Positions 2,529 to 56,400 of a DNA stretch of 64,000 nt are shown here, one piece after another. A model generated the notes under the pieces. It did not search any database, was not told the DNA's origin, and was given only the letters and a program-made list of their open reading frames with translations. Positions within the stretch are counted from its first letter, which is position 1; each line of letters starts with the position of its first letter. The position numbers and the translations under genes are program-made. The stretch is taken from positions 66,065-130,064 of the forward strand of contig QZIX01000009.1 of NCBI GenBank assembly GCA_003599635.1, in the 5' to 3' direction. Source of the DNA: Candidatus Parcubacteria bacterium. GTDB taxonomy: Bacteria; Patescibacteriota; Patescibacteriia; Buchananbacterales; SURF-54.

Positions 2529-2637
2529 GTCATTTCGACCGATGTTTAAGTTATTTTAAGCGGGTGGAGGAATCCCATAACATACGATATTGAGTGTTGT
2601 GAGATTCCTCGACTCCCTTCGGTCGCTCGGAATGACA
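2529..2637. repeat. Palindromic MITE-like element of about 110 bp, copy A (GTCATTTCGACCGATG ... GAGATTCCTCGACTCCCTTCGGTCGCTCGGAATGACA)
   Basis: Near-identical architecture to copy B at 4410-4510: shared termini, internal GTTTAAG, GAGATTCCTCGAC and CTCGGAATGACA. Confidence 0.65.
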
Positions 2638-3495: not shown

Positions 3496-3714
3496 TTACA
3501 TCCTCCTCTCCGATTGCGGAGATCCGCCGTCGATTTCTATAACAATTTTATGCGTAAGGCTGCAAAAATCTACAATATATTTTCCTATTCTGAATTGTCT
3601 GCGAAATTTAATGTTATTAATGTTTTTATTGCGCAGTACCTTCCATAATTTTACCTCCTGCGGTGTCATATTTTTACGTAATGCAGTTGATATATTGTTT
3701 TTTCCTAAAGCCAT
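3496..3714 (-). CDS. DUF559-family endonuclease-domain protein (very-short-patch-repair-like fold)
   Basis: LRKNMTPQEVKLWKVLRN ... FRRQFRIGKYIVDFCSLTHKIVIEIDGG matches the DUF559 signature. The upstream in-frame extension to 3822 is translated repeat sequence, so I call the start at MALGK. Confidence 0.55.
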   Translation of the reverse strand: MALGKNNISTALRKNMTPQEVKLWKVLRNKNINNIKFRRQFRIGKYIVDFCSLTHKIVIEIDGGSPQSERRM

Positions 3715-3721
3715 GTTTGTT

Positions 3722-3780
3722 GCCTCACCCCTTCGACTACGCTCAGGGCAGGCACTAACAACTCTCCGACACGGAGAGGG
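3722..3780. repeat. Repeat-family member (CCTTCGACTACGCTCAGGGCAGG plus CTCTCCG-aca-CGGAGAG palindrome)
   Basis: Shares the TTCGAC..CGCTCAGG core with the elements at 8881 and 12948. Confidence 0.45.
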
Positions 3781-3790
3781 AATTCTATCT

Positions 3791-4414
3791 TTAAAACTGA
3801 TTAGCTTTAATGAATTCATCAACTTTATTTTTAGTTGCAGAATCTATTTTCCCTTCCTCAAGTAGCGTATTAACCATATCTGACATAGTAAAAATACTGT
3901 GCAGTTTGTAACCCCTTTGTTCGATCAATTTTTTCCCGCCTTGTTCTCTGTTCAAAACCACTATCACGTCGGTAACCTTTAAACCTTCTTTTTCAATAGG
4001 TTCAGTTGTGCCAAAAACACTGGTGCCCGATGTTATCAAATCTTCAATCACCAAAACAGTTTGGCCTTTTTTGTATACTCCTTCCAGGGGTACCTGGATG
4101 CCGTGGTCTTTCATTTCCTTTCTCCTGATAATCATCGGTACATCGTGCATGGCCGAAATTACCGTTGCCAAAGGCAGGGCGGTGTAAGGTACGCCGACGA
4201 TAAGATCAAATTTTAAATCTTTTGCAATATTATAAATTTCTTCTGAAATAGCCTTCATTAAATCGGGGTAAGAAATTATTGTCCGCAATGTCAGGTAAAT
4301 TGGTGAGATAATCCCGGTTACCAGCTTGAATTCGCCGAATTTAATGGCGCCGATTTCGTTAAGTTTTAAAATGAGTTTTTTTTTGTCCATAATATTTATT
4401 CCCTTTTTTGTCAT
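3791..4414 (-). CDS. pyrE: Orotate phosphoribosyltransferase
   Basis: PRTase motif VLVIEDLITSGTS and OPRTase-like N-terminus; an alternative start is MDKKK at 4390. Confidence 0.8.
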   Translation of the reverse strand: MTKKGINIMDKKKLILKLNEIGAIKFGEFKLVTGIISPIYLTLRTIISYPDLMKAISEEIYNIAKDLKFDLIVGVPYTALPLATVISAMHDVPMIIRRKEMKDHGIQVPLEGVYKKGQTVLVIEDLITSGTSVFGTTEPIEKEGLKVTDVIVVLNREQGGKKLIEQRGYKLHSIFTMSDMVNTLLEEGKIDSATKNKVDEFIKANQF

Positions 4415-8887: not shown

Positions 8888-8957
8888 TCTGTTTAGTGTG
8901 AGATCCTTCGACTCCCTTCGGTCGCTCAGGATGACACCTTCGGTGTCATTTTTTTAC
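8881..8957. repeat. GTCATYCTGAR-type palindromic element (GTGTCATTCTG...GAGATCCTTCGACTCCCTTCGGTCGCTCAGGATGACACCTTCGGTGTCATTTTTTT)
   Basis: Inverted termini and inner CGAC-tccc-TTCG-GTCG hairpin; its 3' hairpin plus T7 overlaps the last codons and stop of the NUDIX gene. Confidence 0.65.
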
Positions 8958-14051: not shown

Positions 14052-15605
14052 TCAATCAGCCGATTTCAATTCTTCTTCAAGCAATTCCCTGACTATTTTT
14101 GGATTGGCCTTGCCTTTAGTTTCTTTCATAACTTGCCCTATCAGATATTGTATTATAGTTACTTTACCGGCTTTGAATTGTTTGACCTGTAAAGGATTGG
14201 CATCAATAGCTTTTTTCACCGCTTCCTTTATTTTTGCCAAATCGTCAATTTGGGCGAAGTCGTTTTCTTCCATAACGTCAGAAGGATCTTTTCCCGTCTG
14301 ATACATTTCGTCGAGTATTTTCATGGCTGTCGTCTGATTAATTCTGTTGCCGTAAACAATAGTTATGAATTCGGCAAAATTTTCAGCGGAGATTTTACAG
14401 TCGGATATTTTGATATTGTCCCGGTTTAAGTAAAACAGCAGCCGGTTGGTAATCCATTTAGCGGCAAGTTTTGAAATTTTGCCTTTATTTTTTTCCCAGA
14501 TTTCTTCAGCCGTTCCTTCCATTTCCCCCGAATCCGCCAGCCAGCTTGTCAGTTCGCTTATCACGGCTTCGGTATATGACGCAAGCAGTTTGTCTTCGGT
14601 AATGATTCGTGCCTGATCAGCGGGCATTTCATATTGTTCTGAAAATCTTTTTCTTTTCTGCTGAGGGCTTTCAGGCAGTTCTCTTTTGATTTTTTCCACG
14701 TCAATTGCGGAATCGGTTTCATAGAATTTTATCGGCGGCAGGTCGGGTTCAGGAAAATACCGGTAATCCTGAGCCTCTTCCTTCGTTCTTTGCTCTTCTG
14801 TCATTCCCTTGTCTTCATCCCAGCCCCGCGTCGATTGAACCTTGGGCGGATTGCCTTCCTGCCATAATTTTGTCTGCCTGCTAATTTCATAATCAAGCGC
14901 CCGCTTTACCGCATTAAAAGAATTAATATTTTTGATTTCCGTTTTCGGATTGAGTTTCTTTGAACCGTTTTTATTGCCATCGGTTTGTGAAAGCGAAATA
15001 TTGGCATCGCAGCGTAGATGTCCTTTTTCCATATCCGCATCGGAAATGTTCAGATACCGCATTATCAGCCGCAGTTCCTGCATAAAAGTTTTTGCTTCTT
15101 CGGATGAACGCAAATCCGGTTCGGTTACTATTTCCATTAAGGGAGTGCCGGCGCGGTTGTAATCAACGTAAGTTTCACGGCCGTCCGGGGAATGAAAATT
15201 TTTGGCGGCGTCTTCTTCCAAATGCAAACGCGTGATGTTTATCCTTCTTTTACCTTTTTTTGTCCCGGCCTGATCCGATTCAATGTCTAAATAGCCCTTA
15301 ATGCCGATGGGTTTATCGTATTGTGATATTTGGTAACCTTTGGGTAAATCAGGATAAAAATAATGTTTCCGGTCGAATTTCGTAAAGGTCGGAATTTCAC
15401 AATTCAGGGCGGCCGCTGCCATAACCGACCATTTAACGGCCTGCAGATTGGCTGCCGGCAAAGTCCCGGGATGGCCGGTACAGACAGGGCAAATAGTCGT
15501 GTTGGCGGGCTTGTCTTCACCGGAATTGTCGCAGGAACAGAACATCTTTGATTCAGTTTTAAGCTGGACGTGGATTTCCAGTCCTATTATTGGCTCAAGT
15601 TTCAT
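14052..15605 (-). CDS. gatB: Asp-tRNA(Asn)/Glu-tRNA(Gln) amidotransferase subunit B
   Basis: N-terminus MKLEPIIGLEIHVQL...FCSC and the GatB/YqeY C-terminal domain. Confidence 0.9.
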   Translation of the reverse strand: MKLEPIIGLEIHVQLKTESKMFCSCDNSGEDKPANTTICPVCTGHPGTLPAANLQAVKWSVMAAAALNCEIPTFTKFDRKHYFYPDLPKGYQISQYDKPIGIKGYLDIESDQAGTKKGKRRINITRLHLEEDAAKNFHSPDGRETYVDYNRAGTPLMEIVTEPDLRSSEEAKTFMQELRLIMRYLNISDADMEKGHLRCDANISLSQTDGNKNGSKKLNPKTEIKNINSFNAVKRALDYEISRQTKLWQEGNPPKVQSTRGWDEDKGMTEEQRTKEEAQDYRYFPEPDLPPIKFYETDSAIDVEKIKRELPESPQQKRKRFSEQYEMPADQARIITEDKLLASYTEAVISELTSWLADSGEMEGTAEEIWEKNKGKISKLAAKWITNRLLFYLNRDNIKISDCKISAENFAEFITIVYGNRINQTTAMKILDEMYQTGKDPSDVMEENDFAQIDDLAKIKEAVKKAIDANPLQVKQFKAGKVTIIQYLIGQVMKETKGKANPKIVRELLEEELKSAD

Positions 15606-15849
15606 ACTAATGAAACGGTAATTTTTATTACGATTAAGTGAATGGTCACGGTTAGTATTTTATCAGATAATTATTATAAAGAAAAGTCCTTGGGCAGGGC
15701 TTAAGACTCGGATTTTACCTTACTTTTTTTCTTTTTTTCTTTTGGCAATGGTTCTTAACACCAGTGTCGCAATTTATTTAGTGAAGGGCGGCGATAAACC
15801 AAGCATCTTTTTACTAATTGTAAAGAACATATTTTCCCCCTTGGTTGAT

Positions 15850-15980
15850 TTAAAGTGCTGTAATTTTTAAGTTGGTTTTTTCTAAATGACTGGATATATT
15901 GTCCCAGATTTTTTCAGTAACTTTGTCAATTTCCTGATTGGCATCAATAATTTTCCAGCCGTATTGTTTTGCTAAAAACA
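15850..15980 (-). pseudogene. Fragment duplicating the tmk 3' end
   Basis: The minus-strand translation LFLAKQYGWKIIDANQEIDKVTEKI matches the Tmk C-terminus FLFLAKKYGWKIIDANQEIEKITEKI; about 75 bp are roughly 90% identical to 17283-17360. Confidence 0.4.
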
Positions 15981-16021
15981 GAAAAACTTTATATTATTTT
16001 ACAGCATTAATTATTTAAAGT

Positions 16022-16054
16022 AAGAAAAAGTCCCGAGGTTGGTTTCCTCGGGAC
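16022..16054 (-). terminator. Intrinsic terminator (GTCCCGAGG-ttggttt-CCTCGGGAC plus U-run on the minus strand)
   Basis: Perfect 9-bp stem directly 3' of the 304-aa gene. Confidence 0.6.
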
Positions 16055-16071
16055 GGGTTGATTTTGACTGG

Positions 16072-16986
16072 CTAAATGCGACTGGTACCTTTCCTTTTTT
16101 TCTTCTTCACGGGGGCTACAGTAATTGCGATATGCGGAGGGATTACTCCTTTGATATCATAAATTGCAATTACCAATCTTCTGGTGCTGCCATCATGGAT
16201 GCCAAGATCAGCTGCAAAAGCTTTTTTTACATGATTTTCGTCAATGCCGAACTTGGCAACATCACCCACCACGCGCATAAAATAATTTTTGCAACTTTCT
16301 CCCTGATGGCGTTCAGGGGCTCTGAGGTTCAGGATGAACTCTTTTGGAACAGCTTCTTGCAGAACTTCTACGTCCACTGTTTTAAGTTCCGCACCTAGCG
16401 CTGCCACCTTATTTTCGAGGGCTTTTATCGCACTGATATCGTCGGTCGGGTATTGAGCCTTTAATACACCCAGGGCAGCACTACCGGTAAAATTTTTTGA
16501 TGGAGAGATTATACTTGGTTTATGGTATAGCCATTTACCAAAACGCCCGCCATATTTCACAAGTAAATCGTGGATTGCTTTGGCGATTTTTATCCTTAGC
16601 TTTTTAGGCTTTATGCCTATATATTTATCGCCACCGCCTGCTTTTAGAGACGTAAACGGTTCTAATAGCTTGCACCTGGTTTTTATTACCAAGTCTCCAT
16701 ACTTATCCGTGTGGACGCTCGTTACTTTTGGACCCCTGTGGTCCTTTTCCAATTCTCTGACGGTATAGTCTTTGCCATTCCCGCCATGGACAATGACATT
16801 TTGCCAACCTCTATTTGCCGCATCCAATAGAAACTGATCAAGCCCTACCTCAATGGTTATGGAGGCTTTTCTCTCTTTAAATCGCTTCTGCCTGTCAGTA
16901 TTAACGGGCTCGGCGTCCGGGTTATTGTGGATTGGCTGTTTTCTTAACGGAACGTTTTTTTCTTTTTGTAAAGTCATCGTAGCCAT
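16072..16986 (-). CDS. Hypothetical 304-aa orphan protein with basic termini
   Basis: Strong RBS (aggagg), own terminator, GC above local background, C-terminal PVKKKKRKG tail; no motif that I can place. Confidence 0.5.
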   Translation of the reverse strand: MATMTLQKEKNVPLRKQPIHNNPDAEPVNTDRQKRFKERKASITIEVGLDQFLLDAANRGWQNVIVHGGNGKDYTVRELEKDHRGPKVTSVHTDKYGDLVIKTRCKLLEPFTSLKAGGGDKYIGIKPKKLRIKIAKAIHDLLVKYGGRFGKWLYHKPSIISPSKNFTGSAALGVLKAQYPTDDISAIKALENKVAALGAELKTVDVEVLQEAVPKEFILNLRAPERHQGESCKNYFMRVVGDVAKFGIDENHVKKAFAADLGIHDGSTRRLVIAIYDIKGVIPPHIAITVAPVKKKKRKGTSRI

Positions 16987-17241
16987 CTGTTTCCTCCTAA
17001 TCTTATTTTTCAGTTAGTTCCTGTGCATGCCAGTAATTTTTTAACGTACTGCAGAGAAAATTTCCACGGTGAAAATTCCTCATTAATACCTTAAAACTTT
17101 TATTATTTGTTTAATATTCTGACGGATTTAAATGAAATCCGCATTAAATTTTAAAGGGCAACCTTCGATAAATATCTAAATTAACTGCCTTGTGCCAGGT
17201 CCACATTTATATTTTAGTTTACTAGGACAATAAAGTATACC

Positions 17242-17850
17242 TTAATTTACACTTTTTGTCAAGAGGATGATTTGAGCGGAAATATTTTCCAAAATTTTTT
17301 CAGTAATTTTTTCAATTTCCTGATTGGCATCAATAATTTTCCAGCCGTATTTTTTAGCCAAAAATAAAAAATTTTGGCGGCATTTTATCATCAATTCGTT
17401 GTTATTTTCATGCAAATGATTTTTTTCTCGGGCTTTAATAAAAGGCTGACCGTCAAGAAGAATGGCAACATCTTCTTTAAGCAAGTCTTCATTAACTTCT
17501 TCCAACTTTTCCAGTGGGACTCCTTTGGTCATGCCCCAGGCCAAGCCGGTTCCGATATAACATTCGGCGACGATTATTTTTCCCAGACCGAGCATTTTCT
17601 TTAATTCCGGCTCAAAATCTTTTCTGTTTCTGGCGTATAATTTTTGAAGTTCAAGTTCGGAAATTTCCTGCGGTTGTCCCGAGCGCAAGATTTTATTTAG
17701 TTTCGGTCCGGTCGGTTCCAGTTCATAAATAGGATATTTAATGTAGACAGTATCACAGTTGCGATTTTTTAATCTGTCAACTAAGATTTTCGCCTGAGTT
17801 GATTTTCCTATATTGTTGGTCCCGTAAAGAATTATAAGTTTTCCCGGCAT
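17242..17850 (-). CDS. tmk: Thymidylate (dTMP) kinase
   Basis: P-loop LYGTNNIGKSTQ; about 200 aa; dNTP-metabolism neighbourhood. Confidence 0.8.
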   Translation of the reverse strand: MPGKLIILYGTNNIGKSTQAKILVDRLKNRNCDTVYIKYPIYELEPTGPKLNKILRSGQPQEISELELQKLYARNRKDFEPELKKMLGLGKIIVAECYIGTGLAWGMTKGVPLEKLEEVNEDLLKEDVAILLDGQPFIKAREKNHLHENNNELMIKCRQNFLFLAKKYGWKIIDANQEIEKITEKILENISAQIILLTKSVN

Positions 17851-17851
17851 A

Positions 17852-20200
17852 TTATTGAATAATAAATTCTTTCTGCCAGGGCGCGTATGATTTTGTTCCT
17901 ATAATTTCATAATAATTGAAAACCGGCCCTGCAATTAATACTTTTTCACCATTTGGAGTCTGATATATAGCCAGAATTAGGTTGGCACCAGAAATTTCTT
18001 CCTGCAGTTTTTTACCTTCCGGTGATGTAAAAGAAATGGCTGAAAATTTCAAAGACAAACTGCCTGGTGTCAGATTGCCTGAAAGCAAATTTAACTGTTT
18101 GTAAAATTCGTTGATGAACAGTTTTTCCTCGTCATCTAGCGGAATATTTTCCAGCTCTTTTAAGGAAATTATCAAAGACTGGCTTAAAACCTCGATATTA
18201 TTGTCTAGTCTTTCTATTATTGGATCGTTTTTAGGAATGATTTCCAGGTCGATAAATGCGTTTTTTATCATTTTGTTTTCCGCGATAAGATTATTGTAAA
18301 ATTCCGGAGCCGGCTCTAAAAATCCGTAATCGCTTTCCGTGGCTAACATTTTATTTGGATCTGTTTTTTTATTTTCAAAATTTATCGATACATCTTTCCT
18401 TAACGCCAGACGCGAGGCCAAAACCATGTTAAGATTTTTTTTCTGCCAGAGGGAATTGGACATAAATGTGGGATAACCAGAATCGTTTAAGTTAAGATAA
18501 GGATTAATATCCTTAAGCGTTGTCCAGAAAATGTTGCCATACCAGGTATATTTGTCAAAAGTTGATATTTTATTTTTAAGCTGGGCAAGAATTTCATCAT
18601 AGCCGCTGTAAAGATCGTCTTTTTCCGCTGAAATAATTTGACTTGATTCCTGTGAACCGAGCAAGGATAAAATATCGAGCGTACGCGGGAGGCAGCGCAC
18701 GGTTTTTGAATCCAGCAGGCAGGCGGTTTTGGGAAGGTTTTTATCTCCGGCATCCCCCAGGTAATCAGAAACAGCCGGAGTGATTAAATTTACAAACAGA
18801 TAATTTTCGGCGGAAAACGGCGACCGCAGAAGTTTTAGTCCTTTTTTGTGTTTTTCTTTCTGGCTGCCTTCAATTTCCATGGAGGTGTATGTTTCGAGCT
18901 TGTTTTGGACAAGATACACGTTGCGTTCGAATTCCGGATTGTCCGGCGAAAACAATTTTTCAGCGTCGAATTCTTCGCCAAAAAGACTGATTAAGGCGTC
19001 CAGATAGTGTAAATAAGTAAAATCGTATTCTAAACCTTTAAAAAAAGACAGCGTTTTGTAAATCTTCAGCCATTCGTTCCTTGATTCTTTATCGTCTCTG
19101 AAATCCTGGGCAATTAAATTTGAAGCCACAAAAAGAATGCGTTGGTCATCGGTGTCAAGAAGGCATTGAGGGCATGAATCGTCAACTGAATAAAGCGGCA
19201 GCAGGATTTCTGAATAAAGCTTGGCGGCCAACGAATAATTTTTTAATTTTTCTGACGAGGAATAGGCGCTGCTGGGGCTGAATTTGCTGTAGTCGATGGG
19301 ATATAAAAAGATAGGGGATTTGGTTATGCTGTTGTGTTTATTGATTAGGGAAATTTCATTATTAATCTGGTTTTTTAATAATTCCGGCATTTCAAAAGTA
19401 AAGTAAGAACTTTCAAGTTCGGAAAAATATTTTTTTCCCAGACCGGAAGTGACCCACTCTTCTTTAATCTGATTTTGTTTCGGCCTTAAAATTTCCAGAA
19501 CGGCGGCGAAAAAAGCTGTTTCTGTTCTGGCTGCTTCCAACATTACGTTTGACGCTATACTTTGCCCCTGTCTTTGCCGATCGAATCTCGATCTGGATCG
19601 TTCATAAAGCCGTTTGGTAACCCGCCACATCGATGAATAGAAAACGTCCTGCTCAATTTCTTTAAAAAGTATTTGCTGCTGCAATAAATTCGCGTAGGAA
19701 ATTGTATCGGCGGTTACAAAAACCGGAATTTCATTTTCATTTAGGGTTTCATAGATTTGTTCGAAGTTGTCGTTTTGCTCAAACGGATATGGAATAACCG
19801 TAAAACCGTAATTTTCCAGGTTATTTTGAATAGGGTCTAAATTTAATTTACGCGACATGTCGCGATAATTAATGACGTCAGTTTTTATGTTTAAGGGGAC
19901 CTGATATACGGCTGTACCGGGGCTAAAGTACAATTTTTCCATCTCGTAATAATCAGCAAACATTTTTCTTTCTTTGGGAACAACCTCACCATTGCCGTTG
20001 CCGGCGCCGTCGGGAAAAATACTTTTGGAAAAAGGCAGTTGTCGGCTGCTGTTTACGGTGTCATTGATATCGGCATTTACATTCTGATTTGAATCAGCCG
20101 GTGGTTTTGGTTTTAGAAAAACCAGTAATCCCGCCAAAATAAAAATTATAGTCGCTAAAGCGGATGCGGCAATTAAATAAATTTTATTTTTTGTTTCCAT
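17852..20200 (-). CDS. Hypothetical 782-aa protein with N-terminal membrane anchor
   Basis: One N-terminal TM helix and a large extracytoplasmic domain; co-oriented with and overlapping dut and tmk. Confidence 0.55.
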   Translation of the reverse strand: METKNKIYLIAASALATIIFILAGLLVFLKPKPPADSNQNVNADINDTVNSSRQLPFSKSIFPDGAGNGNGEVVPKERKMFADYYEMEKLYFSPGTAVYQVPLNIKTDVINYRDMSRKLNLDPIQNNLENYGFTVIPYPFEQNDNFEQIYETLNENEIPVFVTADTISYANLLQQQILFKEIEQDVFYSSMWRVTKRLYERSRSRFDRQRQGQSIASNVMLEAARTETAFFAAVLEILRPKQNQIKEEWVTSGLGKKYFSELESSYFTFEMPELLKNQINNEISLINKHNSITKSPIFLYPIDYSKFSPSSAYSSSEKLKNYSLAAKLYSEILLPLYSVDDSCPQCLLDTDDQRILFVASNLIAQDFRDDKESRNEWLKIYKTLSFFKGLEYDFTYLHYLDALISLFGEEFDAEKLFSPDNPEFERNVYLVQNKLETYTSMEIEGSQKEKHKKGLKLLRSPFSAENYLFVNLITPAVSDYLGDAGDKNLPKTACLLDSKTVRCLPRTLDILSLLGSQESSQIISAEKDDLYSGYDEILAQLKNKISTFDKYTWYGNIFWTTLKDINPYLNLNDSGYPTFMSNSLWQKKNLNMVLASRLALRKDVSINFENKKTDPNKMLATESDYGFLEPAPEFYNNLIAENKMIKNAFIDLEIIPKNDPIIERLDNNIEVLSQSLIISLKELENIPLDDEEKLFINEFYKQLNLLSGNLTPGSLSLKFSAISFTSPEGKKLQEEISGANLILAIYQTPNGEKVLIAGPVFNYYEIIGTKSYAPWQKEFIIQ

Positions 20201-26214: not shown

Positions 26215-26667
26215 ATGAAGAGTACCACAATAATGTTGTTCTTGGCCATGGCCATATCGGCGATAGCGATAGCTTTTTTCCCGAACATCGCCGTGGCGCA
26301 CCACGCGTTGGTGTCACAATTGGCAATGTCTGCAGAAGATTCACCGGCCGCCGAAAGTTCATATTTATGTGAAGAACTCGAAAGCGAAGGGAAGCCCATC
26401 GTGGTGGCCGAATGTTCCGGCGATTACCCCCTTCTTTTTCGCCAGTCGGCGTCCATCGTTCAGGGATTGATTGACCGGACCGATATGAGACCCATCGATA
26501 TGATGAAGAGCGAATGCGTTCGACTAGGCGGCCAGGTTCCCGAACCTTATTTATGGATAGTGCACATCACCAAGGCCGGGCAGGCGGCAGAAGACGCAGA
26601 GACGCAAAGAAAGTGCACCGGTGCTTCCGGAATTCACGCGGCCGGGGATCAGCTGATCCTCGGATAA
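26215..26667 (+). CDS. Secreted hypothetical protein with 4 Cys; GC-rich and probably horizontally acquired
   Basis: Signal peptide MKSTTIMLFLAMAISAIAIAFFPNIAVA, RBS aaaggag, own promoter and terminator; by eye GC is roughly 50%, versus roughly 37% for neighbouring genes. Confidence 0.5.
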   Translation: MKSTTIMLFLAMAISAIAIAFFPNIAVAHHALVSQLAMSAEDSPAAESSYLCEELESEGKPIVVAECSGDYPLLFRQSASIVQGLIDRTDMRPIDMMKSECVRLGGQVPEPYLWIVHITKAGQAAEDAETQRKCTGASGIHAAGDQLILG

Positions 26668-36968: not shown

Positions 36969-37005
36969 CTGTTTTTTACAATTTAAAATTGTCTTAAAAG
37001 AAGGC

Positions 37006-37278
37006 CTACTTGAGCAGTAGGCCGATGAAATGCCGAATGATATTGAATGACCACTTTCCATTTTCATGGTCGTAGAAAAGCGGTTTTTTTCTGGTGATTT
37101 GACTCAGTATAAAACAAAAAGTGTAGAGTCCCTCCAAAATAAGACCAAAGAAAATGAGTAAAAACTTATGGCAGTAAAGACCACCAACGATAAGAGCGAA
37201 AGGTAAGAATGAAAAAAAGACATATTCTTTGATGCTTAGACTGTTGAACACCGTAATGTTCTGATCTTTTTCAGTCAT
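37006..37278 (-). CDS. Hypothetical small membrane protein (90 aa)
   Basis: Two TM helices; a terminator hairpin overlaps its stop codon. Confidence 0.35.
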   Translation of the reverse strand: MTEKDQNITVFNSLSIKEYVFFSFLPFALIVGGLYCHKFLLIFFGLILEGLYTFCFILSQITRKKPLFYDHENGKWSFNIIRHFIGLLLK

Positions 37279-37304
37279 TTTTCACTCCTTTGATTAATGT
37301 ACAA

Positions 37305-37439
37305 TCAATTGTCGTTTGATGGAATTTCGTTTTGTTCTTTCAAATGTTCGGGGCATTTTTGGCAGCCATCTTTTTCATAAGCTCGGGTGCAGTTGCCGCA
37401 TGCTTGTTGATTTATAGCTTCTTGTTCGGGGTCATACAT
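37305..37439 (-). CDS. Small zinc-ribbon protein (44 aa; C-x2-C-x9-C-x2-C)
   Basis: MYDPEQEAINQQACGNCTRAYEKDGCQKCPEHLKEQNEIPSNDN; this ORF is below the cutoff of the supplied track; weak RBS aaagga. Confidence 0.35.
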   Translation of the reverse strand: MYDPEQEAINQQACGNCTRAYEKDGCQKCPEHLKEQNEIPSNDN

Positions 37440-37593
37440 ATTTTTTTCCTTTCTTTGAAATATCTATAACAGAATGTATGAATCGGTCAAGGGGATAAGT
37501 AAGAGAGTTCTGGATTTGCTTCAAAATTTTAATCAGTTGATGGTGGTTAAAAGCTACGCGATTATGACGATAATGCGATCGGTAATATAATAA

Positions 37594-37682
37594 AAAAGCC
37601 CGCCAGTTGGCTTTAATAATAAAATAATTTGCCAAAAGGCGGGTCGTTACGAAAGCCCTTATGCGTGCGGGAAAGAACAGTG
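37594..37682 (-). ncRNA. Candidate small RNA of about 90 nt, bounded by a consensus promoter and an intrinsic terminator
   Basis: Minus-strand TTGACT-N17-TATAAT at 37689-37717; terminator CCCGCCTTTTGGC...GCCAACTGGCGGG plus CTTTTTT at 37594-37643; no ORF inside; GC-rich island in AT-rich DNA. Confidence 0.35.
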
Positions 37683-37688
37683 TGAAGG

Positions 37689-37717
37689 ATTATATCCCGG
37701 CCCGAAGGGCAAGTCAA
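37689..37717 (-). promoter_or_regulatory. Consensus sigma-70 promoter (TTGACT-17-TATAAT) on the minus strand
   Basis: Exact -35/-10 hexamers with a 17-nt spacer. Confidence 0.5.
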
Positions 37718-37742
37718 AAAAATCAAAAAATTAGGCAATTTT

Positions 37743-37771
37743 AAAAAAAATCCGCTTGAAAACAGCGGATT
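37743..37771 (-). terminator. Intrinsic terminator (AATCCGCT-tgaaaac-AGCGGATT plus U8 on the minus strand)
   Basis: Stem followed on the minus strand by TTTTTTTT; lies 3' of the 37786-37950 ORF. Confidence 0.55.
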
Positions 37772-37785
37772 GGTGAAATTTTTTG

Positions 37786-37950
37786 TCACTTGTTGAATTT
37801 ATCAAGGTTATGGCAGATGAACCAGCAGCAGATTAAGAGGACAGCAAAAACTATTCTCCAGGCAAACGACAGTTTTTCGATGCCACTACTATTGATATTA
37901 AAAACTATCGTTGGCAGAACAAAAACAAAAACAATTACGGCTTTTAACAT
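37786..37950 (-). CDS. Hypothetical small membrane protein
   Basis: MLKAVIVFVFVLPTIV... hydrophobic; a terminator immediately follows. Confidence 0.3.
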   Translation of the reverse strand: MLKAVIVFVFVLPTIVFNINSSGIEKLSFAWRIVFAVLLICCWFICHNLDKFNK

Positions 37951-38241
37951 ATTTTTTCCCCCTAAAGAAATAGACTGAAAAAAAGAACATTTCAAACAGT
38001 TAATCAAATTCCGCGAAAGATGTCAAGATAAGTCTGAAATTGCCGCAAGATAAAGAAAGTTTTTTTATGATATTAAAAAAAAGAAAGGTTGAAAAAGAAA
38101 CCCGGAAAAAAAGTTAGCGCTTTTGAAGTTGTGAACTTTAAAATAAAAAAATGCCCCTCTCTGCGGCAGCTTATCCACCAGAAGCAATATTTTACCTCTG
38201 TTTAAATAATGGCAAGGCCCAGAGAGGGGAAAAACAAGATA

Positions 38242-38433
38242 CTATTTAAAGGTTCGATAAAGTATAACTGCGCTCCAAATGGCAAAAATTATGCCTGCGC
38301 TGCTAAATCCCAGGGTTGCCGCAAAATGACTGATATTTATTGAAGACATTACAACCCATGATAACCCAAACAAAAACATAATCTGCCAGAAGAGAAATGG
38401 TAATTTTCGCACTATCACTGACCCCCCCTTCAA
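38242..38433 (-). CDS. Hypothetical small membrane protein (63 aa)
   Basis: Two TM helices; the long-loop hairpin CCCCTCTCTG...CAGAGAGGGG plus T-run at 38145-38232 follows on the minus strand. Confidence 0.35.
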   Translation of the reverse strand: MKGGSVIVRKLPFLFWQIMFLFGLSWVVMSSINISHFAATLGFSSAGIIFAIWSAVILYRTFK

Positions 38434-38582
38434 TTTATTAGAATATTTAATATTAGCAAATTTTTAAAAAAAGTCAAGATGAAATTAAATAATTCCGGTT
38501 TAGAGTTTTTTCCTGTTAATCTGAATGAAAGCTATAAGATTTTTACCTTGATGCTGTTTAAAATAAAAATCGCCGTAAAAAA

Positions 38583-38819
38583 CTAATTTTTACGGCGAAA
38601 TGTCTTGGACAATGAATCCTTTATTTTCCAGAACACAAAAGCTCCAAGAGACACAATAGACATGAAAGGAACTGCGAAATATTCTGCTGTTTCCCGAGTT
38701 GAAAATCGCGTCATGGCAAAGGCCAAAGCTATGATGAATGCCAGAAGCAGACAGAAGACAAATGCTTCAGCCAGTTTCCATAAACAGAATCTTTCCGACA
38801 TGTTCTTTACTTTATCCAT
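38583..38819 (-). CDS. Hypothetical small membrane protein (78 aa)
   Basis: Two TM helices; a perfect 11-bp hairpin (CGCCGTAAAAA/TTTTTACGGCG) plus T-run at 38560-38597 overlaps the stop. Confidence 0.35.
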   Translation of the reverse strand: MDKVKNMSERFCLWKLAEAFVFCLLLAFIIALAFAMTRFSTRETAEYFAVPFMSIVSLGAFVFWKIKDSLSKTFRRKN

Positions 38820-38874
38820 ACTAACCCTCCTTCTGTTATAAATATGTTAACTATTTGTTTAAGATAAGTCAAAA

Positions 38875-53420: not shown

Positions 53421-56400
53421 TTGATGTTTTATAGTGAGCAAGACACAATGAAAATAAGGAAAACAAAAAGAAAATTTAAAAAAAGAGATTTTTTGATTTT
53501 AAGATCTGAAAAAAACCAAAGAAGAGAGCTAAACGACTTTTCGGGAAAAGAAAAGAACATAGACCATTTTTACACTAGAAATTCCCGCTTTACTTCCCCT
53601 TTGCCTCCGGCTAAATACGGATTCGGCCCTCTTTTAAGAAAATTGGAAAAGAAATTGATATTAAACCCTTACAGCGCGGTATTTTATTTTTTGTTAATTT
53701 TTGTACTGGTTCAGGGAACTTTCCCTGTTTTTTCTTTTCAATTCAAAAACAAGGTCTGGCAGACAGCTGCAGACTGGCAGGAATGGCAGGTTGATAATTT
53801 GTCAATTACTGAAAATGGTAATTTGGTTCTGGCTCAGTATGTTGAAGATGAGCCAGATATCGAAGTTTTATCTGAAAATAATGATATTGCCGGAGATATT
53901 CAAATTGAAGACGGTCAGATTTTTCCCTCGGGTGATGAATCCTTAGAAGATGATGAAACAGGCAGTATGGGAGAGCAAATTAGCGAGGATGAAGATAGCG
54001 CCGGTGATGATTTAGATGATGATCCAGGAGCCGAAACGGAAGATATTCTGTCCGATTTACAGCAGGAATCGCCGGACGAACAGAGTCCAGACGAAGAATC
54101 GCCGGACGAACAGGCTCCGGACGAGGAAATTACTCAAGACGAAGAAACCGCTCCGGACGAGGAAACTGTTCCTGATGAGGAATCTGATATACAAAACGGC
54201 CAGACCGATTATATTTTGGGCGAGTCTTCCGGCGACGGACTGACCGAGACCGAAAATGACGATATACAAAATAATCCGCTGCCTGATGATTTGGCAAACC
54301 AACCGGATGAAGCAGCTGATGATAATTCAGAGGAGATTCAGGATTTATCGCAAATAATGGATGATTTATCAGTGGAAAAAAATGATACGCCAGAAGATGA
54401 TTCTGAATCCGAAAACTCCGCCGGAGATATTTCAGAAATTATCGAAGACGGAGTAGGTGGCCCTGAAATTTCTCTGGACTACGACGATGAAATTTTAGTG
54501 GAGCCGCCCAAACAACCGGCGCAATTATATCAGATTCAGGGTTCGGCTCAAATCTATTACGAACCGGAGCAGGGAATAAATCAGGTCTGGAAAGATTATA
54601 AGGCAAAAATAAAAGGTTCAGACGAAGAAAACCGGGTGGATTTTACCTTTTCTGCCGACAATGTTTTTTACACCCAGGATATGTCGCAACTGCCCGTCAG
54701 TCCGGGAATTTACATCAGGGCGAATTTTTTTGGCACCGGCCAAAAAACACCTTTATTAGGTTCGTTTAAAATTTTTTATCGGGATGAAAATTCAGACGAA
54801 GCACCCGCTGAAGAAAATCTTAATTTAACCGGCCAGGAAAAAAAGAAGTTTGACCGTTTCAGTTCAAAAAAATTAAATAATGTCCAGCTGTCGCCGGAAA
54901 AAAAGCAGCAAAGAAAGGCAAAACTGACTAATAAAAAAGTCGCTCCGGAAGAAGTAATTGAAAAACGAAACCTGTTTTCCCGTTCTTTTGCCGTCAAGCA
55001 GGGCAGCAGAAAGTTCAATAAAGGAAAGGTAAAAACCAAGCTGAATGATTCCAGTTTCAGAACGGAAATTTTCCGCTACCCGGTTAATTATCAGGATGAA
55101 GAAGGCGCCTGGCAGATAATTGAAAACGATTTTGAACAAATTGACCTAAAAGATTTGGACGGAAAACTAGATTCTGGGCAGGAACAAGATTCTGATTCCC
55201 AGACAGATTCAAATTCAGAAAGCAGCCAGAATAATGACAATGATTCCGAAACGGCAAACGAAAGTGAAGAAAATGCCGAGTCGGAAGCGGATTTTATTTT
55301 TGCCACGCTTGACAACAACTGGCAGACCTTTTTTCCCAATCTTGCCTCACAACCTCACCGCATACAGTATCAGGACAGGATAATCGAATACAGGATAGTC
55401 GGCGCTGATCAAAATTCCGTCGCCCGGGTTGAAAGCAATAAAATAACTTATCCGGAAGTTTTTGAAAATGTTGACTTTGTTTATACAATCGACAATGAAA
55501 GAGTCAAGGAAGATATCATAGTCAAATCTCCTGTAGAGCTGGATATTTCATATCAGATGAATGTTGCCAACGTTTATTTTGTCAGGGCAGAAGACGGCAG
55601 CATAAATTTTTACGACCAAACCACCGATGATAAGATATTTTCTCTGCAAAAGCCGTATGTTACCGATTTTATCGGCCAGAAAGCTGACCTGGATTTAGAA
55701 GTGGAAAAGGCGGGAGAAAACAGCTACCTGATAAGGTTGTTAAATACGACCGGCGTTGAACTTGATGACCCCCGAATTGTCTATCCGATAATTATCGACC
55801 CGACAACAACGATTTATGCTGCCGGAACCAATATTTATGTTGACGGTGACGTTTGGACAAATGGTACCGGATCTTATACGTATTTTGATGTCACATTAGC
55901 CGCTGCCAGATCGGGATTTTATGGAACTAATCAGTACCGTTCTTTTTTTGATTTTGATACATCGGGAATTGACGATGACGTTACGATTACTGATGTTGTT
56001 TTAAAAGTCTATGTCGCTGCAACGGCCGGAGGCACACTATCTGTCAATGCCATGGCTCAACAGGTAGGTTTCACTTCGTCAACTCCAGTAGTAGTTTATA
56101 CTGATGCCGGTGACGGCACAGTCTATTACACCGGCACACCCACAGCGTCGGCTTATAATAATCTGGACCTGGGAACCACGGCTGATTCTGACCTGCAAAC
56201 CAACCTTGCCAGTAATTGGTTTGGAGTCGGCGCAACAACGACTACCGGTTTGACCAGTATAAACACCAGCGGTATGGCCAGCAATAAGCCCTATCTTGAC
56301 GTTGCCTGGACTTATACTGATTGCGTTGATTTAACTATCGGCGAAGACACATCTTTGGCAGAAGATTTAACCTGTACCGGCACTATAACCGTAAACAACG

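What the first reader, a model, noticed from the sequence alone, without database searches (positions are those of the whole stretch)
15850..17365. A 1.3-kb insertion carrying a 304-aa orphan gene, flanked by direct repeats of the tmk 3' end
About 75 bp at 15901-15978 are roughly 90% identical to 17283-17360, with a perfect 39-bp core CAATTTCCTGATTGGCATCAATAATTTTCCAGCCGTATT. The second copy is the genuine 3' end of tmk.

The first copy still translates on the minus strand to a Tmk C-terminal peptide (LFLAKQYGWKIIDANQEIDKVTEKI). A gene 3' end duplicated as direct repeats is the classic footprint of a site-specific integration that reconstitutes the target, as in attL/attR.

The intervening segment holds a single gene (16072-16986) with a strong RBS, its own terminator and a GC content above its neighbours. 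The protein has an N-terminal QKRFKERK and a C-terminal PVKKKKRKG that reads like a monopartite NLS or nucleic-acid-binding tail. It contains no motif I can assign; it is not an obvious recombinase, although it is Xer-sized.

It could be a minimal integrated element or a remnant, or the result of a segmental duplication. If the former, the 304-aa product is a candidate cargo or effector.
Basis: seen in the sequence. Interest (0 to 1): 0.65.

Follow-up and report, generated by a model that had tools for sequence, protein, structure and literature searches.

The report
Foreign orphan-gene cassette inserted in tmk
A 1.4-kb piece of foreign DNA carrying one gene with no known relatives sits in the tail of the thymidylate kinase gene of an uncultured Parcubacterium, rebuilding that tail and leaving the old one as a stub; this is a fairly ordinary footprint of gene acquisition, with no recombinase and no assignable function.

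Summary
Window 15887-15990 and 17273-17375 are direct repeats: 99 nt ungapped at 87% identity (104 nt with one gap), with a perfect 39-nt core, 1386 nt apart. The second copy lies inside an intact tmk. The first is a promoterless 45-codon tmk tail.

Between them is a self-contained unit: promoter-like site, AGGAGG ribosome-binding site, 304-aa ORF and a strong terminator.

The ORF has no homologue among 1.84 billion representative proteins, nor in Pfam, PHROGs, NCBIfam, PADLOC, PDB, or the phage, plasmid and viral collections.

In 23 of 36 related Patescibacteria loci, tmk abuts gatB directly. In the others the gap holds unrelated lineage-specific genes. The gene is therefore an insertion at a variable spot.

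It looks foreign. Its synonymous codon use is atypical (z about -2.5), and it is the only ORF of at least 120 aa, out of 43, with a Shine-Dalgarno site.

The stub fits the Tmk family profile as well as the live copy does, which points to two functional tmk lineages rather than local decay.

No integrase or transposase lies within 83 kb of the contig.

Best reading: a single-crossover (Campbell-type) insertion through a tmk-like segment, now a recombinase-less remnant. The gene's function is unknown. Interest is modest.

The parts
17242..17850 (-). Intact tmk (thymidylate kinase, 202 aa). Its last roughly 43 codons comprise repeat copy R2 plus a unique 10-codon tail.
   Evidence: Pfam PF02223 E = 1.9e-18. 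197 homologues at E <= 1e-10, the best non-self at 67% identity.
17273..17375 (-). Repeat copy R2, inside tmk. It encodes FLFLAKKYGWKIIDANQEIEKITEKILENISAQ.
17313..17351 (.). The 39-nt perfectly identical core, copy in tmk. Candidate crossover or gene-conversion segment.
   Evidence: P(run >= 39 | 13 mismatches in 99 nt) = 0.012.
17234..17262 (-). Promoter-like site TTGACA-17-TATACT (11 of 12 matches). It overlaps the tmk stop codon and lies in the non-repeated tmk tail. It would drive the orphan gene with a leader of about 240 nt.
   Evidence: This is a consensus match only.
16987..17241 (-). AT-rich spacer or 5' leader (GC about 0.29) between the tmk stop and the orphan gene. It contains the AGGAGG ribosome-binding site at 16993-16998.
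   Evidence: No Rfam match. Fold z = -1.8, not remarkable.
16072..16986 (-). Orphan gene: 304 aa, pI 9.85, soluble, with basic N- and C-termini. No homologues.
   Evidence: Atypical synonymous codon use.
16030..16054 (-). Intrinsic terminator of the orphan gene: 9-bp stem followed by a T-run.
   Evidence: One search gives -17.9 kcal/mol and z = -4.5.
15850..15990 (-). Displaced tmk 3' fragment (repeat copy R1 at 15887-15990). The frame stays open for 45 codons to TAA at 15850-15852. It has no start codon and lies downstream of the terminator.
   Evidence: Family-profile score 64.7 bits against 61.5 for the live copy.
15927..15965 (.). The 39-nt perfectly identical core, copy in the fragment.
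15606..15849 (-). Presumed original tmk-gatB intergenic region (244 nt). It contains the gatB promoter-like TGATAAAAT and an 18-codon mini-ORF preceded by GGGGGA.
   Evidence: Its length is within the 26-550 nt range seen in relatives.
14052..15605 (-). gatB, the conserved downstream neighbour of tmk in relatives.

Best explanation
A foreign single-gene cassette entered the 3' end of tmk by one reciprocal crossover, a Campbell-type insertion-duplication. The cassette consists of a promoter-like site, a canonical Shine-Dalgarno site, the 304-aa orphan ORF and a strong terminator.

**Proposed mechanism**
- The crossover occurred between the chromosomal tmk and a tmk-like segment of about 100 nt on the incoming DNA.
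- It took place in, or was later homogenised over, the 39-nt identical core.
- The product is a live hybrid tmk. Its last roughly 24 codons, including a new 10-residue tail, come from the incoming DNA.
- The original tmk tail (45 codons) was pushed 1.39 kb downstream. It now sits as a silent stub in front of gatB.

**Current state**
- The insert encodes no recognisable recombinase. It is either a decayed, minimal remnant of an integrative element (comparable to a cis-mobilisable element) or DNA integrated by the host's own homologous recombination.
- The 39-nt identity could still allow rare RecA-type pop-out.
- The orphan protein is a basic, soluble protein of unknown function. A nucleic-acid-binding role is the most likely guess, based only on a weak hint.

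**What is shown:** the anatomy, the insertion relative to relatives, the foreign signature, the undecayed stub and the absence of a nearby recombinase.

**What is inferred:** a circular intermediate, the crossover position, which repeat arm is native, and any function of the protein.
For: **Anatomy**
- The repeat and its core are real.
- Homology ends sharply on both sides, which defines a tmk-like block of about 104 nt.

**Core identity**
- The core is identical while the arms are 74-80% identical. The probability of a run of at least 39 given 13 mismatches in 99 nt is 0.012.
- All third codon positions in the core are identical, against 8 of 21 differing in the arms.
- Among relatives, third positions in the core are only 55% conserved. 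Protein-level selection alone therefore does not explain the perfect identity.

**Two functional tmk lineages**
- The stub keeps an open frame.
- 8 of 14 differences fall at third codon positions, and 5 codons differ only synonymously.
- The stub keeps the family-consensus Trp (81 of 119 homologues) and Val (74 of 119), where the live gene has Leu and Ile.
- The stub scores 64.7 bits against the family profile and the live copy 61.5.
- Both copies therefore derive from functional tmk genes.

**Empty sites**
- tmk is followed by gatB in 36 related loci, 23 of them with gaps of 400 nt or less.
- Other lineages hold unrelated genes in this gap.

**Foreign signature**
- The orphan gene's synonymous log-likelihood is -0.011, against a mean of 0.097 and sd of 0.043.
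- It is the only one of 43 ORFs of at least 120 aa with a GGAG/GAGG site.
- On the contig, 8 of 28 Pfam-less genes have SD-like sites, against 1 of 50 Pfam-annotated genes.
- A subgroup of Parcubacteria lacks the anti-SD motif (PMC9297842).

**Precedent**
- tmk is a known landing site for genomic islands in Pseudomonas putida (PMC10653934).
Against: - No integrase, transposase or other recombinase lies in the insert or within contig positions 8,895-92,027.
- There is no second instance anywhere: the gene and the duplication are unique to one contig from one sample.
- No tmk-like att segment was found in viral contigs.
- The core is also the most conserved part of the tmk tail in relatives (66% against about 49% nt identity). 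Part of its identity is therefore ordinary conservation.
- A circle of 1.39 kb is very small for an element.
- Excision, a circular form and read support could not be tested.
Confidence: 0.45

Rival explanations
1. Homology-facilitated illegitimate recombination of a linear DNA fragment from a closely related donor in which the orphan gene already lay downstream of tmk.
- The left crossover occurs by homology within or upstream of tmk.
- The right end joins illegitimately at about codon 159 of the recipient's tmk.
- The live tmk is then largely donor-derived, and the stub is simply the recipient's leftover 3' end.
- No circular element and no site-specific recombinase are needed.
For: - The model produces exactly the observed topology.
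- The stub looks like a functional tmk allele.
- The tmk-gatB gap is a variable spot that holds different genes in different relatives, so a donor with the order tmk, orphan gene is plausible.
- No recombinase is present.
- The abrupt 5' boundary of the stub at 15990 could be the illegitimate joint.
Against: - The model gives no reason for a perfectly identical 39-nt core inside arms of 74-80% identity (P about 0.01).
- It does not explain the abrupt loss of homology 10 codons before the stop, given 87% identity just upstream.
- A closely related donor would be expected to give the orphan gene host-like codon use and no SD site. Both are atypical.
Confidence: 0.22
2. Assembly artefact, or an extrachromosomal mini-circle threaded into the chromosome contig. 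Two strain variants, or a free 1.39-kb circle carrying a tmk-like segment, were joined by the assembler at the shared 39-mer.
For: - The contig comes from a single metagenome assembly. The NCBI and JGI records have the same 162,293-nt length, and only one sample holds the contig.
- The exact repeat is k-mer sized.
- No independent contig confirms either junction.
Against: - This point rests on inference, not a test: a 39-nt exact repeat, or 99 nt at 87%, is shorter than typical Illumina reads and final assembly k-mers, so it should be resolved.
- Even under this model, a real molecule must carry the orphan gene followed by a tmk-like segment. The biology of a tmk-mimicking element would stand.
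- No variant Tmk carrying the stub's tail exists in the 5.8-billion-protein collection.
Confidence: 0.08
3. Local origin. The orphan gene is an old resident, and the stub arose by a local segmental duplication of the tmk tail that has since drifted.
For: - The two copies are each other's closest relatives by far: 87% nt identity, against at most 81% over 64 nt to any relative.
- The GC content of the ORF is unremarkable for this genome.
Against: - The stub has not decayed. Its frame is open and its family-profile score is at least that of the live copy.
- The stub retains the consensus Trp where the live gene has Leu.
- Differences are enriched at third codon positions.
- The duplicated block is non-tandem and only 104 nt long, with unrelated sequence on both sides.
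- No relative has the orphan gene.
- The codon use and the SD site are foreign-looking.
Confidence: 0.07

Closest known systems
Genomic islands or integrative elements inserted in the 3' end of a housekeeping gene with attL/attR direct repeats. Examples, recalled from my own knowledge: SCCmec in rlmH/orfX, ICESt1/ICESt3 in fda, islands in guaA or tRNA genes.
   Same: - Direct repeats made from the target gene's 3' end flank the insert.
- An identical core sits within diverged arms.
- The target gene is rebuilt and stays intact.
- Relatives have empty sites.
- The cargo is compositionally foreign.
   Different: - No integrase or recombinase lies in or near the insert.
- The insert is only 1.39 kb with one gene.
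- Neither excision nor a second occurrence has been shown.
Cis-mobilisable elements (CIMEs) and ccr-less pseudo-SCC cassettes: att-flanked remnants that lack their own recombinase (recalled from my own knowledge).
   Same: It is flanked by att-like repeats of the target gene, has no recombination module and carries a small cargo.
   Different: A cognate integrase-bearing element that uses the same site has not been found. The rest of the genome could not be searched, so membership cannot be tested.
The tmk-disrupting genomic island of Pseudomonas putida KT2440 (PMC10653934).
   Same: tmk is the landing site for horizontally acquired DNA.
   Different: - In P. putida the island is 65 kb and encodes tyrosine recombinases.
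- It splits tmk into two non-functional halves and supplies a replacement dNMP kinase.
- Here tmk stays intact, and the insert has one unrelated orphan gene and no recombinase.
Phage 'morons': independent transcription units with their own promoter and terminator, inserted between conserved genes (recalled from my own knowledge).
   Same: It is a single gene with its own promoter-like site, ribosome-binding site and terminator. Its coding signature differs from its neighbours.
   Different: It lies in a cellular chromosome among nucleotide-metabolism genes, not in a prophage. Morons are not flanked by duplicated target sequence.
Insertion-duplication by Campbell integration, and homology-facilitated illegitimate recombination in naturally transformable bacteria (recalled from my own knowledge).
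   Same: A short homologous segment on the incoming DNA yields a partial duplication of the target around the foreign DNA. The 39-nt identity is of the order of the minimal segment needed for RecA-type recombination.
   Different: These are processes, not element families. Nothing here shows which one acted.

Membership tests
Site-specific integrative element (prophage, ICE, IME or genomic island) | Direct repeats (attL/attR) with an identical core flanking the insert | tested here: met
   Repeat of 99-104 nt at 87% identity with a 39-nt identical core.
Site-specific integrative element (prophage, ICE, IME or genomic island) | Element-encoded tyrosine or serine recombinase next to an att site | tested here: not met
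   - The only ORF in the insert has no Pfam, PHROGs, NCBIfam or PADLOC match.
- By inspection it lacks an RHRY-type or serine-recombinase motif.
- No recombinase is called on contig positions 8,895-92,027.
Site-specific integrative element (prophage, ICE, IME or genomic island) | Empty target site in related genomes | tested here: met
   tmk directly abuts gatB in 23 of 36 related loci. An example is L003, with a gap of about 320 nt. All relatives are distant: Tmk identity is at most 67%.
Site-specific integrative element (prophage, ICE, IME or genomic island) | Excision to a circular form, or presence at the same site in other genomes | not testable with these tools
   No reads are available. 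The gene and the duplication occur on one contig only.
Cis-mobilisable element (CIME-like remnant) | att-flanked, with no recombination module of its own | tested here: met
Cis-mobilisable element (CIME-like remnant) | A cognate integrase-bearing element that recognises the same att core | tested here: inconclusive
   None was found on 83 kb of the contig or in viral contigs. The rest of the genome and community could not be searched.
Insertion sequence or transposon | Transposase, terminal inverted repeats and a short target-site duplication | tested here: not met
   - No transposase family match.
- No terminal inverted repeats at the insert's ends.
- The duplication is about 100 nt and diverged, not a short exact target-site duplication.
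Free-standing homing endonuclease gene | LAGLIDADG, GIY-YIG, HNH, His-Cys or PD-(D/E)xK nuclease domain | tested here: not met
   No Pfam or NCBIfam match at E <= 1. Homing also does not duplicate the target.
   No Pfam hit at E <= 1. No homologues at all in the exhaustive HMMER search.
Thymidylate kinase (the flanking gene and the stub) | Match to PF02223 / TIGR00041. For the stub, alignment to the family's C-terminal helix. | tested here: met
   - tmk matches PF02223 at E = 1.9e-18. Its TIGR00041 score is 58 bits, below NCBI's equivalog cut-off of 83.
- The stub aligns to residues 161-194 at 76% identity, E = 2e-12. Its profile score is 64.7 bits.

The most novel reading that the evidence does not exclude
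The 1.39-kb unit is a minimal, autonomous integrative mini-element of candidate-phyla-radiation bacteria. It would be a circle that mimics the tail of the essential tmk gene. It would integrate and excise through the 39-nt core, using either host recombination or the orphan protein itself as a recombinase or replication protein of a completely new family. The tmk-gatB junction would be its dedicated landing pad.
Probability: 0.07. Interest if true: 0.75.

Novelty: new member of a known kind. Interest (0 to 1): 0.3.

Why it matters
If the reading is right, this is a clean, small example of how ultra-small Parcubacteria genomes pick up lineage-specific genes. Foreign, self-contained cassettes land at a recurrent variable junction inside an otherwise conserved pyrimidine/dNTP gene cluster. 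Here the event left a molecular fossil, the old tmk tail, that records the crossover.

The sharper by-product concerns ribosome-binding sites. Housekeeping genes on this contig essentially lack Shine-Dalgarno sites, while Pfam-less accessory genes carry canonical ones. The same holds in a relative's tmk-gatB gap. This could serve as a simple marker of recently acquired genes in anti-SD-poor lineages. It also raises the question of how such genes are translated there.

The orphan protein cannot be placed, and nothing indicates an unusual mechanism.

Tried and rejected
**Searches for relatives of the orphan protein**
- Pfam, PHROGs, NCBIfam and PADLOC scans found nothing apart from a chance NepR match.
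- The word-indexed search of 5.8 billion proteins returned only the protein itself.
- The exhaustive HMMER search of 1.84 billion representatives returned the protein itself plus two hits, P0122 and P0123. Both are repeat proteins in which a short weak match is multiplied by repeat copies, so I rejected them as artefacts.
- The PDB sequence search gave one borderline hit, to the PCI/winged-helix part of Rpn6 (E = 0.01, residues 75-155). I keep it only as a hint.
- Single-sequence AlphaFold2 gave pLDDT 38, which is unusable, so I ran no fold search.
- Phage, plasmid and viral-contig searches found nothing.

**Other searches that found nothing**
- A degenerate tmk-core pattern had no match in viral contigs.
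- Rfam on the region and on the whole window found only one tRNA, far away.
- The 5' leader fold is unremarkable, z = -1.8.
- ARAGORN found no tRNA or tmRNA target near the insert.
- Alignment of the two regions downstream of the repeats found no further homology. One 59-nt match at 64% identity (E = 0.09) was rejected as noise.
- Intergenic comparison with the closest relatives was not informative.
- A search for tmk-tail duplications in 90 related loci found none.

**Ideas considered and rejected**
- GC content as a sign of foreignness is not distinctive.
- By inspection, the protein does not read as a tyrosine or serine recombinase, an HUH Rep, or a GIY-YIG, HNH or PD-(D/E)xK nuclease. No family model matches either.
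Full report
**1. Observation**

The repeat exists. The repeat finder reports 15887-15985 against 17273-17371, 99 nt at 87% identity, spacing 1386 nt. A gapped alignment extends it to 104 nt, 15887-15990 against 17273-17375. Homology stops abruptly on both sides.

The 39-nt core occurs exactly twice in the 64-kb window, and none of 100 shuffles gave a match.

Copy 2 lies inside an intact tmk at 17242-17850 on the minus strand (Pfam Thymidylate_kin E = 1.9e-18). It ends 10 codons before the stop.

Copy 1 translates on the minus strand to VFLFLAKQYGWKIIDANQEIDKVTEKIWDNISSHLEKTNLKITAL*, with its stop at 15850-15852. No ORF of at least 40 aa is called there, and it sits downstream of a strong terminator.

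Between the copies lie four features:
- a promoter-like TTGACA-17-TATACT site overlapping the tmk stop;
- a 255-nt AT-rich leader;
- AGGAGG 6 nt before the ATG of a 304-aa ORF at 16072-16986;
- a 9-bp-stem terminator with z = -4.5.

The GC claim does not hold. The ORF (0.435) equals gatB (0.432) and lies within the window's spread of 0.40 +/- 0.044.

**2. Where the window comes from**

The ORF is 'hypothetical protein C4569_01665' of a Candidatus Parcubacteria MAG. It sits on a 162-kb contig of JGI metagenome 3300007352.

It lies within a same-strand pyrimidine/dNTP supercluster. The order is dCMP deaminase, thyA, folA, a P-loop kinase, dut, DUF3160, tmk, the orphan gene, gatB, pyrB, pyrD, pyrK, carA, NUDIX, carB.

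**3. The protein**

It is a true orphan.
- Pfam, PHROGs, NCBIfam and PADLOC found nothing.
- The 5.8-billion-protein search returned only the protein itself.
- The exhaustive HMMER scan of 1.84 billion representatives returned the protein itself plus two repeat-protein artefacts.
- Phage, plasmid and viral collections found nothing.
- Single-sequence AlphaFold2 is unusable, with pLDDT 38.

The protein is basic (pI 9.85) and hydrophilic, and I saw no membrane segment or signal peptide. Its termini and residues 121-160 are strongly positive.

The only hint is a borderline PDB match (E = 0.01) of residues 75-155 to the PCI/winged-helix part of Rpn6. A nucleic-acid-binding role is my best guess, with low confidence.

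An ORF this long is very unlikely to stay open by chance. My estimate from base composition is about 2e-8 per frame. I therefore treat it as a real or recently real gene.

**4. It is an insertion at a variable junction**

I collected 91 related tmk loci. In 36 of them gatB follows tmk on the same strand:
- 23 loci have gaps of 400 nt or less.
- 1 locus has a 526-nt gap with no ORF of at least 60 aa (L013, the closest relative).
- 2 loci have gaps of about 530-550 nt, each filled by a 172-aa P-loop-kinase-like ORF.
- 10 loci have gaps of 860-2710 nt.

The larger gaps hold unrelated lineage-specific genes:
- three cassettes in L002;
- a transposase-like ORF in L027 and L029 (my reading of the sequence, not tested);
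- phospholipase-C-like genes in L039, L054 and L056 (by inspection);
- P-loop kinases in L040, and in the two 530-550-nt gaps noted above (L035 and L044);
- a dUTPase-like ORF in L066 (by inspection);
- a membrane protein in L089 and L091.

None is related to the orphan gene. Only this contig has a duplicated tmk tail, out of 90 loci tested.

The stretch from the stub's stop to gatB is 244 nt. That is a normal tmk-gatB spacer for this group.

**5. The cassette looks foreign**

Its synonymous codon-use log-likelihood is -0.011, against 0.097 +/- 0.043 for 50 ORFs in the window. That is the lowest value among the credible genes.

It is the only one of 43 ORFs of at least 120 aa with a GGAG/GAGG motif upstream.

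Using JGI gene calls over 83 kb of the contig, SD-like cores precede 8 of 28 Pfam-less genes. They precede only 1 of 50 Pfam-annotated genes, and that one is a weak GAGG before a DUF559 gene. One caveat applies: gene callers favour SD-preceded small ORFs, so the small ones may be over-called.

In relative L002, every ORF inside the tmk-gatB gap has a strong SD, while tmk and gatB have none.

A published survey found the anti-SD motif in only 48% of Parcubacteria (PMC9297842). The 16S rRNA of this genome is not in the window, so I could not check it.

**6. The two tmk tails come from two functional genes**

Of 14 nucleotide differences in 33 codons, 8 fall at third positions, and 5 codons differ only synonymously.

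The stub keeps the family-consensus Trp (81 of 119 homologues) and Val (74 of 119), where the live gene has Leu and Ile. The live gene keeps the consensus Lys (73 of 119) where the stub has Gln (2 of 119).

A family profile scores the stub at 64.7 bits and the live segment at 61.5 bits. The stub is therefore not a decayed local copy. The two tails diverged under selection in separate lineages.

**7. The core**

Given 13 mismatches in 99 nt, a mismatch-free run of at least 39 has P = 0.012.

Relatives conserve the core more than the arms (66% against about 49% nt identity), but third positions in the core are only 55% conserved. In the repeat pair, no third position in the core differs, against 8 of 21 in the arms.

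Protein-level constraint therefore only partly explains the perfect identity. A crossover or gene conversion in the core is the better explanation. Its length is of the order that RecA-type recombination needs (from my own knowledge).

**8. No recombinase**

Gene calls and Pfam annotation over contig positions 8,895-92,027 show no integrase or transposase. The insert has no terminal inverted repeats. No tRNA lies nearby, and there is no Rfam match.

**9. Explanation and rivals**

*Best (0.45).* A single-crossover, Campbell-type insertion of foreign DNA carrying a tmk-like block of about 100 nt. It rebuilt tmk with a new tail and displaced the native tail. What remains is a recombinase-less remnant, or the product of host homologous recombination.

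*Rival 1 (0.22).* Homology-facilitated illegitimate recombination of a linear fragment from a near relative. It gives the same topology. It does not explain the identical core, the abrupt 3' end of homology, or the foreign signature of the gene.

*Rival 2 (0.08).* Misassembly, or a free mini-circle threaded in at the shared 39-mer. I could not test this because no reads are available. It is unlikely, since the repeat is shorter than typical reads. Even so, some real molecule must join the orphan gene to a tmk-like segment.

*Rival 3 (0.07).* Local duplication followed by drift. Sections 5 and 6 argue against it.

The remaining probability covers scenarios I have not thought of.

**10. Comparison with known systems**

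It works like an att-flanked island in the 3' end of a housekeeping gene, or like a cis-mobilisable remnant. tmk is already a documented landing site for an island in Pseudomonas putida KT2440. There, however, the island is 65 kb, encodes recombinases and destroys tmk (PMC10653934).

Membership in the integrative-element family fails on the defining recombinase. It is not an IS, an integron cassette or a homing-endonuclease gene. As a transcription unit it resembles a phage moron.

**11. Verdict**

The structure is real and interpretable, but it occurs only once, and the protein cannot be characterised. It is a new member of a known kind: an insertion-duplication footprint with orphan cargo. 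Interest is 0.3.

The most useful by-product is the Shine-Dalgarno dichotomy between core and accessory genes.

Noticed in passing
Whole window and contig flanks (L001, L093, L095, L096). Examples: window 16993-16998, upstream of 38819 (minus strand), upstream of 43480 (minus strand).: Housekeeping genes essentially lack Shine-Dalgarno sites: 1 weak case among 50 Pfam-annotated genes. In contrast, 8 of 28 Pfam-less genes carry canonical AGGAG(G) at the proper spacing. This may mark recently acquired genes in an SD-poor Parcubacterium. Part of it could be gene-caller bias for small ORFs.
   Followed up: partly
L002:730-3430 (Logan contig ERR15087788_352801; relative with 63% Tmk and 75% GatB identity).: The tmk-gatB gap holds ORFs of 148, 252 and 232 aa, the last a match to Pfam ATLF (anthrax toxin lethal factor family). 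It also holds a 25-codon Lys/Arg-rich mini-ORF, MAKRDKGGKKRKKRRRYRKKKKKKK. All are preceded by strong SD sites and separated by a reiterated terminator-plus-promoter module of 42-60 nt, with 4 copies at 62-88% identity to the reference copy. Several gap ORFs, like the window's orphan gene, end in Lys/Arg-rich tails.
   Followed up: partly
Window 2598-2637 and 8897-8936.: A 40-nt direct repeat at 90% identity, TGTGAGATTCCTCGACTCCCTTCGGTCGCTCGGAATGACA, with an 18-nt exact core. The copies are 6.3 kb apart and bracket pyrF, a small DUF559-family gene, a phosphoribosyltransferase gene (pyrE-like), an amidohydrolase gene (pyrC-like) and carB. The fold is weak to moderate. Its meaning is unknown.
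   Followed up: partly
Window 3496-3819 (minus strand) and L095:8814-9152.: Two small DUF559-family genes on the contig. I recall this family as Vsr-like endonucleases. One is wedged between pyrF and the phosphoribosyltransferase gene. They may be selfish endonuclease genes.
   Followed up: no
Window 17852-20200 (minus strand); also L003:1095-3434 and L004:1692-4031.: A 780-aa DUF3160 protein is conserved next to dut in the dNTP gene cluster. It sits between dut and tmk in this genome and between dut and thyA in the two relatives. An uncharacterised protein is thus syntenic with nucleotide-metabolism genes.
   Followed up: no
Window 26215-26667 (plus strand); JGI calls a 144-aa gene here.: A Pfam-less ORF with GC 0.534, against a window mean of 0.40, and the most atypical codon use in the window (-0.051). 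It lies close to secE-nusG-rplK. It may be another foreign or spurious ORF.
   Followed up: no
Window 53424-63140 (plus strand).: A 3238-aa protein with weak fn3 matches and large internal DNA repeats: 300 nt at 58367/59483, 96 nt at 60818/61004, and GGC-rich (probably Gly-coding) 41-nt repeats at 56.6-58.0 kb. It looks like a giant surface protein typical of these bacteria.
   Followed up: no
Window about 36970-38870.: A 2-kb stretch with only small (35-90 aa), mixed-strand, Pfam-less ORFs, between the hsp20 and NUDIX genes. Two of them have SD sites. No RNA family matches there.
   Followed up: no
L035:5591-6109, L044:5597-6115 and L040:3186-3710.: In several relatives the gene immediately after tmk is a P-loop kinase-like ORF of about 172 aa. 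This recalls the dNMP kinase carried by the tmk-targeting island of P. putida.
   Followed up: no
Window 15777-15833 (minus strand).: An 18-codon mini-ORF, MFFTISKKMLGLSPPFTK, preceded by AAGGGGGAAAAT. It lies just downstream of the tmk stub. Coding status is unknown.
   Followed up: no
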